This document shows positions 3,001 to 6,000 of a stretch of 39,506 nt of DNA, piece after piece. Position numbers: made by a program. Each line of letters begins with the position of its first letter. Position 1 is the stretch's first letter. The DNA is from a virus: the UHGV virus genome UHGV-0354001; one strand, 5' to 3'.

Positions 3001-6000
3001 ATTATCGCGTCCTCAACAATGAATTTTGTGATGCGGTGCCTGGTGCCTCCAGGTGACGTTAACCAGTTAACAATTAACGCCGGATACAGAGAATCCACCC
3101 ATAACACTGTTTTTGGTTTTAACTGTTCCGCGTGCGCTTAGCCGCATTCACTGCATCACAAAATTCACTTTAAAAAGGGTGGCAGAGCAGTCACGGAGTA
3201 GAACTGATGCCACCAAAGACTACACATGGATATTGTGGCGGGGCTGTCACTTAAGCGTATGGTCAGCCTGACAACCCGGTGTCCTCAAGGGGAAGGAATA
3301 ACCCCGCCATACTTACCGCCGCGCCATTTCGCGGATTGCCACAACCGGAAGCGCACGGTCGAATTAAATTTAACGACAAAGTACAGAGAGACGAGCTTCT
3401 CCGTGTGCTTTCGCGTTATGCTCTGACTTTTCAGAGAAATATCCTTTCAGTAAACTGTCAGTGCCGGATGTTCACCCGTGTCCGGCGCACGCACTCCACT
3501 TCACCCGTGGAGAACTCCTTAATTACCAACCTTAGCTTCGTTGGTTAGCTATTAACGCGGGTATGTAATCATTCTGGCAATGCTTAATGCCGCTGCTTTT
3601 TCCAGATTGGTGATATCCTGCTCCAGAGCGGACAGATTTTCAGCCTGCTTAGCCCTGGCTTCATTGGCCCATTTCAGATCCTGCGCTGCATTAATTTTCT
3701 GGCGCATCCACTCATAAAGTTCATCATCGGTATAGTCTGGCGCGATGATGACGGGTTCTCGTTTCTGCATGTCGGCTCCTTGTGGTTAGCGTTGCCTGCT
3801 TTTAACCACGTCAGGCGAGGTGGTATCCTCTGAGGGGTCTGTTACTCGAGAGGAAATTGGTTATGAGTACAATCAAGTTTTCTTGCCCAGAATGTGGTGG
3901 CGAAGTCTTTGACACATCCTTTAAGCCGCAGGGCTCTGACAGTTTCGCGGGAGCCATCTGCAAAAATTGTGGTCACCTTGTAACTGAAGATGAGTCCTCG
4001 CAGTTCGATGACGAAATCGTTGACAATATCTTCGGTGCACTCACCAGAGACTTTCTGAAGTAAAGGCGCATACCGCTTAGTTACCGCTCTGATAATTCTT
4101 ACCTGTCCGGCAATGGCGCTGATGTCAATATAAAGCGCCATTGCTGCTTCTTTGCCGATCCCGGGATGCCTTCCATTCTGATGTTTGACTTCGCCCACTG
4201 AGAAATCCTCTGTTTCCCCTTAACGCCGGGGTAGCGGAACAAAAACCTGCTGCATAGTTATTAAAGTTGAACCCTGCCGTCATGTTCTTACGCCTCGGGC
4301 TGGCTACTTAACCCCTGACCACTGCCTGGTAACTCGAAGTATTGCCCTGCATTCTGTGGGGCGGGGTGGGTGGCAGGTATATAATGTACTTTGCGTTCAT
4401 TGTTGTAAAGTACTTTTAGTACATTTTGTGTGTAAAAAAATGAGATGGGATAAAGTGAAGCACAAACCCGGAGGAAGGCGCTACCGGATTTATGCTGGTT
4501 TAAGAGGCTTTTTGTTTTTTCTTTCGTGCTAACTCTTCGTAAATTGCATTGTACTTCTGTTTTTTCTCTTCAAGAGTTTTTAAAAGTTCATCTGTCTCAC
4601 TGTCAGGGAGCTCGTCCAGAAGGTCAATGATGATTTTTTGTCTTGGATTTAACTCCTGATAGAAACGTACCTGTCCACTTTCTTCTGTATCCTCTCCCAA
4701 AAGATAGGTTGGTGTTGTTCCTATTAGTGTTGCTAATTCCCTTAATTTCTCCCGGCGAGGAATTGTTTCGCCATTAAACCATTTGCTAACCGCTTTTGGT
4801 GTTAATTTCATTCGACGGGCAATTTCTGCCTGCCTTCCATGTTGTTCATAACCAGCGTTTTCACAGGCTAGCGCAAGCCTACTGGCGAACTCTTTACGCG
4901 CTTTATCTTCATGAACCATGAGTTCAATGATATTCGCTCTTGAATGTACTGTCAGTTCTGTTATAGCATGTACTCAAAGTTCACATTGTGAGGGTGATAT
5001 GAACCAGAAAACACTTGAAGATGTAATCAAAACTGTTCGCGTTGCTGTTGTGGCCGACGTTTGTGGTGTCAGCCAAAGAGCAATCTATAAATGGATGGAT
5101 AACGGAAAATTGCCTCGCACAGAATATACCGGCGAAACAAATTACGCTGAAAAAATCGCTCTTGCATCAAACGGATTATTTTCTGCCGATGCAATTTTAA
5201 CTATTGGCAGGAATAAAACTACTACGAAAAAGCTGATGGGAGTTGATTCATGAAAATCAAGCATGAACACATCCGCATGGCGATGAATGCCTGGGCGCAT
5301 CCGGACGGCGAAAAAGTACCGGCTGCGAAAATTACCAAAGCGTATTTCGAACTGGGGATGACGTTCCCGGAACTGTACGACGACAGCCATCCGGAAGCCC
5401 TGGCCCGTAATACCCAGAAAATTTTCCGCTGGGTGGAGAAGGACACCCCTGATGCTGTTGAAAAAATTCAGGCGCTGTTACCGGCGATCGAAAAGGCGAT
5501 GCCGCCTTTGCTGGTGGCCCGTATGCGCAGTCACAGTTCTGAATATTACCGGGAGATCGTCGAACGACGGGATCGGCTGGTGAAAGATGTGGATGATTTT
5601 GTCGCTGTAGCGATCGCCTGGGGCACCCTGACTAACAGTGGTGGTCAGCCTGGTAATGCTGTTGTTGTGCATTGACCAACAATATTTATACCGGATTTCT
5701 TCCGGAAGTTCGTGGGTAAAGTTCGGTATCAGAAGAGGTGAGTATGGCTAATGCCTGGCTCAGATTGTGGCATGACATGCCAAATGACCCCAAGTGGCGA
5801 ACGATTGCCAGGGTATCAGGACAGCCAATCGCAACAGTGATGGCAGTGTATATCCACCTTCTGGTGAGCGCGTCACGAAATGTCACGACATGTCACGGCG
5901 TGTCACTACGTGGTCACATTGATGTCACGACGGAAGATTTAGCAAGTGCGCTTGATGTGACGGAAGACGTAATTGATTCAATTTTGCATGCAATGCAGGG

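What the first reader, a model, noticed from the sequence alone, without database searches (positions are those of the whole stretch)
4370..4998. Shared ATGTACT operator half-site on both sides of the repressor gene
The heptamer ATGTACT or its complement occurs at 4384-4390, 4418-4424 (inverted), 4944-4950 and 4968-4974, with nested inverted repeats at 4383-4425. These sites flank the DicA-like repressor gene, where OL-like and OR-like operators would lie, and may define the immunity specificity of this prophage.
Basis: seen in the sequence. Interest (0 to 1): 0.4.

Follow-up and report, generated by a model that had tools for sequence, protein, structure and literature searches.

The report
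HK022-type operators flanking a prophage repressor
The repeated ATGTACT words are halves of five 17-bp repressor-binding sites on either side of a prophage repressor gene, arranged like the operators of phage HK022, so this is an ordinary lambdoid on/off switch correctly spotted.

Summary
ATGTACT or its complement lies at 4384, 4418, 4944 and 4968, four of the five copies in 39.5 kb. The heptamer is one half of a 17-bp imperfect palindrome, A-TGWAC-N5-GTWCA-T.

The window has five such sites:
- OL1 4384-4400 and OL2 4408-4424, 24 bp apart, past the 3' end of the repressor gene.
- OR2 4944-4960 and OR1 4968-4984, before cro. OR spacings are 33 and 24 bp.

Half-sites, spacings and promoter positions match the annotated oL and oR sites of phage HK022. 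A matrix built only from the HK022 sites ranks these five sites top in the whole window. Eleven related loci from six genera keep the layout. Their half-sites are nearly invariant and their central bases mostly vary.

The 139-aa repressor has an HK022-CI-like DNA-binding domain (47% identity). Its C-terminal part is a DicA-like helical tail, not an S24 peptidase domain. PL heads a dicF-dicB operon.

The operator reading is supported, but the specificity is the shared HK022 type, not unique to this prophage. This is a new member of a known kind, of low to moderate interest. Binding was not tested.

The parts
4384..4400 (.). OL1 operator, ATGTACTTTGCGTTCAT. It overlaps the spacer and -10 of the leftward promoter PL.
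   Evidence: Exact match to TGWAC-N5-GTWCA. Scores 15.5 bits on a matrix built only from HK022 sites. Aligns with HK022 oL1, ATGTACTTAAAGTTCAT.
4408..4424 (.). OL2 operator, AAGTACTTTTAGTACAT, 24 bp from OL1. It overlaps the -35 of PL.
   Evidence: Best matrix hit in the whole window at 20.9 bits. Aligns with HK022 oL2, AAGTACCAATAGTACAT. The 24-bp spacing holds in all 12 loci.
4381..4409 (-). PL candidate promoter: -35 TTTACA (4409-4404), 17-nt spacer, -10 CATTAT (4386-4381). It reads leftward into the dicF-dicB operon.
   Evidence: Found independently by the promoter scan. Its two hexamers sit at the positions annotated as the pL -35 and -10 in HK022 record X16093. TGTAAA is invariant in 12 loci. 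Promoter activity is inferred.
4500..4919 (-). Repressor gene, 139 aa. It has an HK022-CI-type helix-turn-helix domain (about residues 1-75), a linker, and a DicA-type C-terminal pair of helices (92-138). It has no S24 peptidase domain.
   Evidence: Pfam HTH_3 only. 47% identity to the HK022 CI N-terminal domain, E 6e-32. 29% identity to K-12 DicA including the tail, E 5e-15. Alignment, structure model. The 99.6%-identical gene of phage Tritos is annotated CI repressor and is expressed 24-fold above background in the LF82 lysogen (PMC9928086).
4911..4927 (.). OR3 operator, ATGAACCATGAGTTCAA, centred on the repressor start codon (ATG at 4919-4917 on the minus strand).
   Evidence: Exact pattern match. 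16.9 bits on the HK022-only matrix. Same position and same 33-bp distance to OR2 as HK022 oR3, TTGAACCATAAGTTCAA.
4927..4955 (-). PRM candidate: -35 CTGACA (4955-4950), 17-nt spacer, -10 TATCAT (4932-4927). The predicted start is at about 4919-4920, which would give a leaderless repressor mRNA.
   Evidence: Best promoter-scan hit in the region, 10 of 12. HK022 has CTGATA and TATAGT at the aligned positions. The leaderless start is inferred from distance only. A leaderless start is reported for paaR2 and lambda cI (PMC8630535).
4944..4960 (.). OR2 operator, ATGTACTGTCAGTTCTG. It lies between the -35 and -10 of PR and over the -35 of the PRM candidate.
   Evidence: One mismatch to the pattern. 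15.5 bits. Aligns with HK022 oR2, CTGTACTATCAGTTCCG.
4940..4969 (+). PR candidate: -35 TTGAAT (4940-4945) and -10 either TATAGC (4962-4967, the position homologous to HK022 CATAAT) or TAGCAT (4964-4969).
   Evidence: Positional homology with the annotated HK022 pR -35 (TTGACT) and -10 (CATAAT). It falls below the promoter-scan threshold, so it is inferred.
4968..4984 (.). OR1 operator, ATGTACTCAAAGTTCAC, 24 bp from OR2, over the predicted PR start site.
   Evidence: Exact pattern match. 17.7 bits. Aligns with HK022 oR1, ATGAACCATAAGTTCAC.
4999..5253 (+). cro-like gene, 84 aa.
   Evidence: 60% identity to HK022 Cro, E 1e-33. Weak HTH_17 Pfam hit. Annotated Cro in Tritos.
5243..5260 (.). Perfect YdaT (CII-equivalent) recognition sequence, TTGATTCATGAAAATCAA, at the cro stop and ydaT start.
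   Evidence: Zero-mismatch match to TTGATT-N6-AATCAA. An exact match is expected about 0.005 times in the window (my own arithmetic). The motif and its location at the ydaS/ydaT junction were footprinted in CP-933P (PMC9986795).
5250..5675 (+). ydaT-like gene, 141 aa, the functional equivalent of lambda cII.
   Evidence: Pfam YdaT_toxin, E 7e-10. Role taken from PMC9986795 and PMC8630535.
3177..3228 (-). DicF sRNA gene in the leftward operon downstream of PL.
   Evidence: Rfam RF00039, 61.1 bits against a gathering score of 48.
2814..3002 (-). dicB homologue (cell-division inhibitor) in the same leftward operon.
   Evidence: 89% identity to K-12 DicB, E 9e-41.

Best explanation
The ATGTACT words are half-sites of five 17-bp pseudo-palindromic operators (A-TGWAC-N5-GTWCA-T) of an HK022-type lambdoid immunity switch. 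The 139-aa repressor probably binds as a dimer through its HK022-CI-like helix-turn-helix domain. At OL1 and OL2 it would occlude the leftward promoter PL, silencing the dicF-dicB-recE early-left operon. At OR1 and OR2 it would occlude PR, silencing cro, the ydaT-like cII equivalent and the replication genes. OR3 sits on the repressor's own start site and would give autorepression and a target for Cro. The fixed 24-bp spacing within each pair implies cooperative binding of adjacent dimers, and the roughly 500-590 bp between OL and OR would allow looping, as shown for HK022 CI. Shown here: the sites, their non-random clustering, their homology and conservation, the protein homologies and the promoter-like hexamers. 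Inferred: actual binding, the order of occupancy, cooperativity, looping and promoter activity. The C-terminal domain is a DicA-type helical tail and not an S24 peptidase. Derepression is therefore probably not by RecA-stimulated self-cleavage but by an antirepressor or by repressor instability, as reported for DicA. This last step is the least supported.
For: Sites and statistics. Four heptamers fall in 591 bp (corrected P about 4e-5; 0 of 300 simulations). A matrix made only from the HK022 annotated sites puts exactly these five sites at ranks 1-5 of the window (15.5-20.9 bits). The sixth hit scores 11.8, and the best fifth-ranked score in any null simulation is 11.4.
Homology to a studied system: HK022 record X16093 annotates oL (2 sites), oR (3 sites), pL and pR at the equivalent positions. 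HK022 CI binds adjacent operators in OR and OL cooperatively and loops OL to OR (PMC8053113, citing Carlson & Little 1993).
Conservation: 12 loci from Escherichia, Salmonella, Klebsiella, Raoultella, Citrobacter and Providencia all show OR3-33 bp-OR2-24 bp-OR1 and OL1-24 bp-OL2. The majority-base fraction is 0.90-0.99 in half-sites and 0.55-0.92 in the central 5 bp. The two conserved centres are explained by the start codon (OR3) and the PRM -35 (OR2).
Proteins: repressor N-terminal domain 47% identical to HK022 CI. The stretch TPKAVSKWFNGE, which I take to include the recognition helix, is nearly invariant across the family and differs in DicA. Cro is 60% identical to HK022 Cro.
Promoters: PL and the PRM candidate were found by an unbiased scan at positions overlapped by the sites.
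Biology: the 99.6%-identical region belongs to the active temperate phage Tritos of E. coli LF82. Its repressor is one of the few prophage genes expressed in the lysogen, and Tritos is not among the phages reported as ciprofloxacin-induced (PMC9928086). DicA is not induced by mitomycin C and is relieved by the antirepressor Rem (PMC10448788).
Against: No binding experiment exists for this protein. The HK022 sites in X16093 are labelled 'potential' repressor binding sites, and the primary footprinting paper could not be read here. The PR -10 is poor (TATAGC or TAGCAT) and fell below the scan threshold. OR2 lies over the -35 of the PRM candidate, so activation of PRM as in lambda is doubtful and the PRM assignment may be wrong. 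The window lacks the extra HK022 sites OL3 and OFR, so regulation may differ in detail. No Rem-like antirepressor and no convincing LexA box were found in the window, so the induction route is unsupported.
Confidence: 0.9

Rival explanations
1. The four heptamers are a chance cluster in an AT-rich intergenic region and have no function.
For: The whole-window count (5 against 2.35 expected) is not significant by itself; 8 of 100 shuffles reach 5. The region is AT-rich, with local GC 0.40 against 0.53 for the window.
Against: With local composition, P(>=4 in 629 bp) is 5e-6, and none of 300 simulations placed more than 2 copies in any such span. The longer palindromic pattern is enriched. Sites, spacing and half-sites are conserved in 12 loci from six genera while the central bases vary.
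Confidence: 0.01
2. The inverted repeats at 4383-4425 form an RNA hairpin, for example an intrinsic terminator ending the repressor transcript or a convergent plus-strand transcript, and are not protein-binding sites.
For: The scan flags a terminator-like stem at 4386-4413 (+) followed by a T-rich run. The plus-strand RNA folds at -14.2 kcal/mol, z = -2.8.
Against: On the minus strand, which carries the repressor gene, the fold is only -6.9 kcal/mol, z = -1.9. The stem has 3 G-C pairs. The nearest plus-strand ORF ends at 4063, more than 300 nt away. Hairpin potential follows automatically from two adjacent palindromic operators. The same motif recurs at OR, where RNA folding is no better than shuffled sequence (z = +0.5 and -0.4). 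Across relatives the paired arms stay invariant instead of co-varying.
Confidence: 0.03
3. The sites are real operators but are read mainly by Cro or another factor. The chimeric 139-aa protein with its DicA-type tail would have lost or changed the HK022 specificity.
For: The C-terminal domain differs from that of HK022 CI, and no direct binding data exist. In lambdoid phages Cro does share the repressor's operators (PMC10448788).
Against: The presumed recognition stretch TPKAVSKWFNGE is essentially identical between the short-form and S24-form repressors. Both forms sit next to the same operator layout. Tritos, which carries this module, forms lysogens that express the gene.
Confidence: 0.05

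Closest known systems
Immunity region of coliphage HK022 (cI, cro, oL, oR; GenBank X16093) and its relative HK75
   Same: Same operator half-sites (TGWAC/GTWCA) and the same spacings (OR3-33-OR2-24-OR1; OL1-24-OL2). pL and pR hexamers sit at the same positions relative to the sites, and OR3 lies over the repressor start codon. The repressor DNA-binding domain is homologous (47% identity) and Cro is homologous (60%).
   Different: HK022 CI carries an S24 peptidase C-terminal domain; the window's repressor has a 55-aa DicA-type helical tail. The window lacks OL3 (53 bp from OL2) and the OFR site after cro. Its leftward operon carries dicF and dicB rather than nun. The gene in the cII position is YdaT-type.
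DicA/DicC switch and dicBp of the Qin cryptic prophage of E. coli K-12
   Same: A short repressor with an HTH_3 domain and the same type of C-terminal tail (29% identity over 112 aa, E 5e-15). A divergent cro-like gene. A promoter just past the repressor's 3' end driving the ydf-dicF-dicB operon (PMC10448788).
   Different: By inspection, the repeated words in Qin's dicA flanks are of the TTAGCTAA / TGTTAAC / ACTAACA type, not TGWAC-N5-GTWCA. The presumed recognition stretch differs (SHVSVSQWERGD against TPKAVSKWFNGE). No homologue of Qin's antirepressor Rem is in the window.
Lambda OR/OL with the CI/Cro bistable switch
   Same: Divergent repressor and cro genes. Operator clusters on both sides of the repressor gene overlap PL, PR and PRM. 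Sites are 17 bp and pseudo-symmetric, with 23-24 bp spacing (established knowledge, summarised in PMC10448788).
   Different: The operator sequence is unrelated. OL has two sites rather than three. The OR3-OR2 spacing is 33 bp. OR2 lies over the -35 of the PRM candidate rather than next to it. The repressor has no S24 cleavage domain.
PaaR2/YdaS/YdaT switch of cryptic prophage CP-933P (E. coli O157:H7)
   Same: A lambdoid switch with a YdaT-type CII equivalent. The footprinted YdaT site TTGATT-N6-AATCAA lies at the cro(ydaS)/ydaT junction and is present as a perfect copy at 5243-5260. The repressor mRNA there is leaderless.
   Different: The reported PaaR2/YdaS repeat consensus is GTTTAGTAA, which means a different immunity specificity, and paaR2 is co-transcribed with a toxin-antitoxin pair that is absent here (PMC8630535).
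Non-cleavable repressors of Salmonella Gifsy prophages (GfoR, GfhR), controlled by LexA-regulated antirepressors
   Same: A repressor class that lacks the self-cleaving domain and is inactivated by a partner protein, as summarised in PMC10448788. This is a plausible model for induction here.
   Different: No antirepressor gene and no convincing LexA box were found in the window. Sequence relatedness to the Gifsy repressors was not tested.

Membership tests
HK022-type immunity region | Operators matching the HK022 site pattern (TGWAC-N5-GTWCA) | tested here: met
   Five sites with at most 1 mismatch. They are ranks 1-5 of the window on a matrix built only from HK022 sites.
HK022-type immunity region | Operator layout: three OR sites spaced 33 and 24 bp between cI and cro, and two adjacent OL sites 24 bp apart past the cI 3' end, overlapping pL and pR | tested here: met
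   Window sites start at 4912/4945/4969 and 4385/4409. HK022 sites start at 1651/1684/1708 and 852/876 of L001.
HK022-type immunity region | Repressor DNA-binding domain homologous to HK022 CI, with a matching recognition stretch | tested here: met
   47% identity over 99 aa, E 6e-32. TPKA(V/I)SKWFNGE is conserved.
HK022-type immunity region | Cro homologous to HK022 Cro | tested here: met
   60% identity over 73 aa, E 1e-33.
HK022-type immunity region | LexA-like S24 peptidase C-terminal domain on the repressor | tested here: not met
   No Peptidase_S24 hit. The protein ends at 139 aa with a DicA-type tail.
HK022-type immunity region | Accessory sites OL3 (53 bp from OL2) and OFR (after cro) | tested here: not met
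   No further matrix hit above background. In the OL alignment an OL3-like word is visible only in the loci that lack the short-form repressor (HK022, HK75, Klebsiella, Citrobacter, Raoultella, weakly Providencia). OFR is seen only in HK022 and HK75.
HK022-type immunity region | Repressor physically binds these sites, cooperatively | not testable with these tools
   Needs EMSA or footprinting. For HK022 itself it is reported in work cited by PMC8053113.
DicA-type short prophage repressor | HTH_3 domain followed by the short helical C-terminal tail (L-P..ELPDSE..LEEKK motif), about 135-140 aa in all | tested here: met
   BLASTP alignment to K-12 DicA runs through the tail. The model shows helices 92-103 and 106-138. 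A tail-only search finds 39 cluster representatives, in all of which the match ends within a few residues of the C-terminus.
DicA-type short prophage repressor | Sits upstream of, and presumably controls, a dicF-dicB operon | tested here: met
   DicF at 3177-3228 (-) and DicB at 2814-3002 (-), 89% identical, both downstream of the PL candidate. The layout is met; control is inferred.
DicA-type short prophage repressor | Operator sequence of Qin DicA | tested here: not met
   By inspection, Qin's dicA flanks carry different repeated words. The presumed recognition stretch differs.
DicA-type short prophage repressor | Relief by a Rem-type antirepressor, independent of SOS cleavage | tested here: inconclusive
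   No Rem homologue in the window (tblastn best E 0.37), but the window does not cover the whole prophage. Tritos is not reported as ciprofloxacin-induced.

The most novel reading that the evidence does not exclude
The repressor may be a natural chimera: an HK022-type DNA-binding domain joined to a portable C-terminal module of about 55 aa (consensus L-PR.KILLELF.ELPDSEADELLKTLEEKK) that no Pfam family covers. The module occurs at the C-terminal end of short prophage repressors with quite different N-terminal domains, DicA among them. If this small helical tail alone supplies dimerisation, the pairwise cooperativity implied by the unchanged 24-bp and 33-bp operator spacing, and OL-OR looping, then two unrelated oligomerisation domains (S24 peptidase fold and helical tail) serve the same operator geometry. 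Swapping them would convert an SOS-cleavable switch into an SOS-independent one without changing immunity specificity. It would also predict cross-immunity between HK022-like phages and a prophage type found in about a fifth of complete E. coli genomes.
Probability: 0.4. Interest if true: 0.45.

Novelty: new member of a known kind. Interest (0 to 1): 0.25.

Why it matters
The result lets this common E. coli prophage immunity region be annotated with base-level operators and promoters. At least 80% of the 1.1-kb region is present in 1047 of 5426 complete E. coli genomes, and it is the region of the active phage Tritos of the Crohn's-associated strain LF82. It assigns the region to the HK022 specificity group. 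That makes testable predictions about superinfection immunity between these prophages and HK022-like phages, and about what keeps the division inhibitors DicB and DicF silent. The side observation is of some interest for how lambdoid switches evolve and why some prophages do not respond to DNA damage: the same operator layout is served either by S24-type or by DicA-tail-type repressors. None of this overturns current understanding.

Tried and rejected
- Primary HK022 papers: Carlson & Little 1993 (PMC206910) is not held. I relied on the GenBank annotation and on the summary in PMC8053113.
- PaaR2/CP-933P as the closest system: rejected, because its reported repeat consensus is GTTTAGTAA.
- RNA hairpin or terminator reading of the OL repeats: folded both strands. 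The relevant strand folds weakly and the OR region folds no better than shuffles, so this was rejected.
- Antirepressor and induction route. A LexA-box pattern gave three GC-rich matches inside late genes; I did not follow them up and do not consider them convincing. tblastn with Qin Rem found nothing. Pfam on ten genes to the right found replication, restriction-modification, QueH, RusA and Q functions but no antirepressor.
- PDB sequence search gave only a weak P22 C2 hit for the HTH domain and nothing for the tail.
- Technical failures: the first statistics script timed out and one script failed on a file name.
- The symmetrised base-count table printed was built on 20-mers and is out of register. 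I did not use it. The per-operator lists and the half-site versus centre fractions from that call are in register.
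Full report
**1. The observation**

ATGTACT or its complement occurs at 4384-4390 (+), 4418-4424 (-), 4944-4950 (+) and 4968-4974 (+), exactly as reported. The only other copy in the 39.5-kb window is at 11544. The whole-window count is unremarkable: 5 found against 2.35 expected, and 8 of 100 shuffles reach 5. The clustering is not. A 629-bp span is expected to hold 0.064 copies (0.11 with the local, AT-richer composition). That gives P(>=4) of 6.7e-7, or about 4e-5 after correction for 63 spans, and 5e-6 with local composition. None of 300 first-order Markov simulations put more than two copies in any such span. The nested inverted repeats at 4383-4425 are also real (pairs I9 and I12).

**2. 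What the repeat really is**

The repeat finder showed that the unit is longer than a heptamer. ATGTACTnnnnGTTC occurs at 4384, 4944 and 4968, and TAATGTACTTTGCGTTCATT (4382) resembles TAAAGTACTTTTAGTACATT (4406), 24 bp away (families D1 and D4). Read as a palindrome, the unit is A-TGWAC-N5-GTWCA-T. The right halves are mostly the GTTCA variant, which is why an exact-heptamer search sees only the left halves.

Searching TGWAC-N5-GTWCA with at most one mismatch gives 11 hits against 3.0 expected, and 0 of 100 shuffles reach 11. Five hits, including all three exact ones, lie between 4385 and 4983. The five sites, quoted as 17-mers (core plus one flanking base on each side), are:

| Site | Coordinates | Position |
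|---|---|---|
| OL1 | 4384-4400 | past the repressor 3' end |
| OL2 | 4408-4424 | 24 bp from OL1 |
| OR2 | 4944-4960 | 33 bp from OR3 |
| OR1 | 4968-4984 | 24 bp from OR2 |

**3. Gene context**

- The gene at 4500-4919 (-) encodes a 139-aa HTH_3 protein.
- 4999-5253 (+) encodes an 84-aa HTH protein.
- 5250-5675 (+) encodes a YdaT-family protein.
- A DnaT-domain replication protein follows.
- To the left on the minus strand lie DicF (3177-3228, Rfam 61 bits), a DicB homologue (2814-3002, 89% identical to K-12 DicB) and an 824-aa ORF at 59-2533. The counterpart of that ORF in phages Tritos and vB_EcoS-666R9 is annotated exonuclease VIII.
- To the right are a lambda-P-like protein, a restriction-modification pair, RusA, Q and late genes.

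This is a lambdoid prophage. The two site clusters lie where OL and OR lie in such phages.

**4. Homology with a studied system**

A distant BLASTN of 4200-5300 against phage records found a 99.6% match to Escherichia phage Tritos. It also found roughly 70% matches, covering the 5' part of the repressor gene, the intergenic region and the start of cro, to HK022, HK75 and several Klebsiella, Citrobacter, Providencia and Salmonella phages.

The HK022 record X16093 annotates two oL sites, three oR sites, pL and pR. Its sequences are:

| HK022 site | Sequence |
|---|---|
| oL1 | ATGTACTTAAAGTTCAT |
| oL2 | AAGTACCAATAGTACAT |
| oR3 | TTGAACCATAAGTTCAA |
| oR2 | CTGTACTATCAGTTCCG |
| oR1 | ATGAACCATAAGTTCAC |

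They have the same half-sites as the window's sites and the same 24, 33 and 24 bp spacings. HK022 oR3 likewise lies over the cI start codon.

The window's leftward promoter-like site, TTTACA-17-CATTAT (4409-4381), was found by an unbiased scan. Its two hexamers coincide with the annotated HK022 pL -35 and -10. A position weight matrix built only from the six HK022 sites (five operators plus OFR), symmetrised, ranks the window's five sites first to fifth at 15.5-20.9 bits. The next hit scores 11.8, and the best fifth-ranked score in any of 300 null sequences was 11.4.

According to PMC8053113, which cites Carlson & Little 1993:
- HK022 CI binds adjacent operators in OR and OL cooperatively.
- An OL3 lies 53 bp from OL2.
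- A further operator lies about 300 bp downstream of OR.

The same paper shows experimentally that HK022 CI loops OL to OR.

**5. Conservation**

I collected twelve loci:
- the window;
- HK022 and HK75;
- Tritos and vB_EcoS-666R9;
- an 89%-identical E. coli repressor variant;
- two Salmonella loci with short repressors (62-65% identical);
- a Raoultella locus with an S24-type repressor;
- Klebsiella phage 2;
- Citrobacter phage Omnitron;
- Providencia phage PSTNGR2lys.

Every locus has OR3-33-OR2-24-OR1 between the repressor and cro, and OL1-24-OL2 past the repressor's 3' end. In ungapped register, the half-site columns have a majority-base fraction of 0.90-0.99. The central five bases score 0.55-0.92. 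The two conserved centres are explained by other constraints: the start codon in OR3, and the -35 of the PRM candidate in OR2. Invariant arms with free centres, and no covariation, is the signature of a protein-binding palindrome. It is not the signature of an RNA helix.

**6. The proteins**

The repressor's first 100 or so residues are 47% identical to HK022 CI (E 6e-32). They are 62-72% identical to S24-type repressors from Raoultella and other sources. The stretch TPKAVSKWFNGE, which I take to include the recognition helix, is nearly invariant across the family. In DicA it reads SHVSVSQWERGD. Cro is 60% identical to HK022 Cro.

The repressor stops at 139 aa and has no Peptidase_S24 domain. 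Its last 55 or so residues align with the tail of K-12 DicA: full-length BLASTP gives 29% identity, E 5e-15, running through the tail. An AlphaFold2 model (mean pLDDT 75) shows a five-helix HTH domain (1-75), a low-confidence linker (77-90), and helices 92-103 and 106-138.

A search with the tail alone found 39 cluster representatives of 51-216 aa. In all of them the match ends within a few residues of the C-terminus. Of the ten I scanned, the N-terminal parts were diverse and none had a Pfam family over the tail. So 'DicA-like' is right for the architecture, while the DNA-binding domain and operators are HK022-type. By inspection, Qin's own dicA flanks carry different repeated words. The CP-933P PaaR2/YdaS repeats (GTTTAGTAA) differ as well (PMC8630535).

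**7. Mechanism**

The sites, their conservation, the homologies and the promoter-like hexamers are shown. The rest is inferred from the positions of the sites relative to the hexamers and from what is known of lambdoid switches.

| Site | Centre | Position relative to promoter |
|---|---|---|
| OL1 | 4392 | about -18 of PL (start about 4374) |
| OL2 | 4416 | about -42 of PL |
| OR1 | 4976 | about +1 of PR |
| OR2 | 4952 | about -24 of PR; over the -35 of the PRM candidate |
| OR3 | 4919 | predicted PRM start |

- The PR assignment is -35 TTGAAT at 4940-4945 and -10 TATAGC or TAGCAT at 4962-4969.
- The PRM candidate is CTGACA-17-TATCAT (4955-4927), the best scan hit at 10 of 12. Its predicted start coincides with the repressor ATG, which implies a leaderless mRNA as in lambda cI and paaR2.
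- Repressor at OL1/OL2 and OR1/OR2 would shut off both early operons.
- OR3 would provide autoregulation and Cro's route to shut off the repressor.
- OR2 covers the -35 of the PRM candidate, so lambda-style activation is doubtful.
- The conserved 24-bp spacing implies pairwise cooperativity, and the 500-590 bp between OL and OR would allow looping.

The repressor has no S24 domain and carries the DicA tail. DicA is not induced by mitomycin C and is relieved by the antirepressor Rem or by instability (PMC10448788). I therefore infer an SOS-cleavage-independent release. Tritos is not among the LF82 prophages reported as ciprofloxacin-induced, though it is spontaneously produced and its repressor is expressed 24-fold above background in the lysogen (PMC9928086). 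I found no Rem homologue or convincing LexA box in the window, so this step remains open.

**8. Differences from HK022**

The window lacks OL3 and OFR. In the OL alignment, an OL3-like word 53 bp from OL2 is present in HK022, HK75 and the Klebsiella, Citrobacter and Raoultella loci, and weakly in the Providencia locus. It is absent from every locus with the short repressor. This suggests that the segment exchanged with the C-terminal domain carried OL3 with it. The leftward operon is of the dicBF type rather than nun, and the cII position is occupied by a YdaT-type protein.

**9. Rival explanations**

- Chance is excluded by the statistics and the conservation.
- A terminator hairpin was flagged at 4386-4413 on the plus strand (-14.2 kcal/mol, z -2.8). 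It is a by-product of two adjacent palindromes. The strand that carries the repressor gene folds at only -6.9 kcal/mol. The OR region folds no better than shuffled sequence.
- That only Cro, and not the 139-aa protein, reads the sites is unlikely given the conserved presumed recognition stretch. It cannot be excluded without binding data.

**10. Verdict**

The refinements are the full 17-bp operator, a fifth site, the HK022 specificity group, and a repressor that combines an HK022-type DNA-binding domain with a DicA-type tail. This is a new member of a well-known kind of system. At least 80% of the 1.1-kb region is present in 1047 of 5426 complete E. coli genomes. The most interesting residue is evolutionary: one operator geometry is served by two unrelated C-terminal domains.

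Noticed in passing
window 5243-5260: A perfect copy of the footprinted YdaT (CII-equivalent) recognition sequence TTGATT-N6-AATCAA spans the cro stop codon and the ydaT start codon. This is the position described for CP-933P, and it probably marks a PRE-like, YdaT-activated leftward promoter for repressor establishment.
   Followed up: partly
window 4500-4667 (repressor residues 85-139); proteins P0041-P0077: The C-terminal tail (L-PR.KILLELF.ELPDSEADELLKTLEEKK...) is a portable module. It was found at the C-terminal end of 39 cluster representatives. Of the ten scanned, the N-terminal domains were diverse (HTH_3, YdaS-like, or none recognised) and no Pfam family covered the tail. DicA carries the same module.
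   Followed up: partly
L001 929-943, L011 1646-1660, L009 5384-5398 and the OL alignment: A third OL site 53 bp from OL2 appears in HK022, HK75 and the Klebsiella, Citrobacter and Raoultella loci (weakly in Providencia) but in none of the loci with the short DicA-tail repressor. This suggests OL3 was exchanged together with the C-terminal coding segment.
   Followed up: partly
window 9469-11485: A type II restriction-modification pair sits inside the prophage: a C-5 cytosine methylase (9469-10593) and an NgoMIV-family restriction enzyme (10472-11485). QueH lies just before it (8604-9290), and a sok antitoxin RNA match lies at 9358-9538.
   Followed up: no
window 14254-14843: Three tRNA genes (14254-14500), the sRNA STnc100 (14579-14787) and an AsxR match at exactly its gathering score (14791-14843, minus strand) lie downstream of the Q antiterminator gene (13348-14043). 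This is the position where Stx phages carry their toxin locus.
   Followed up: no
window 3857-4063 (+): A 68-aa zinc-ribbon ORF (two CxxC pairs) lies on the plus strand, antisense within the leftward early operon between PL and dicF. It has only sub-threshold Pfam hits. The 99.6%-related phage Tritos annotates different small minus-strand genes in this interval.
   Followed up: no
L004 345-978 and L005 30-678: The Salmonella loci with short repressors of this family carry a TumE-family gene (Pfam PF20126) and a neighbouring HVO_A0114-like gene about 2 kb beyond cro, and a HigB-toxin/HTH pair immediately after the repressor gene. I recall Tum as the LexA-controlled antirepressor of phage 186. 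That is a lead for the induction route of this repressor class.
   Followed up: no
window 19392-19407, 26857-26872, 32242-32257: There are three exact CTGT-N8-ACAG matches (0.41 expected by chance), all with GC-rich centres and all inside late genes. They are unlikely to be LexA boxes, but the excess is unexplained.
   Followed up: no
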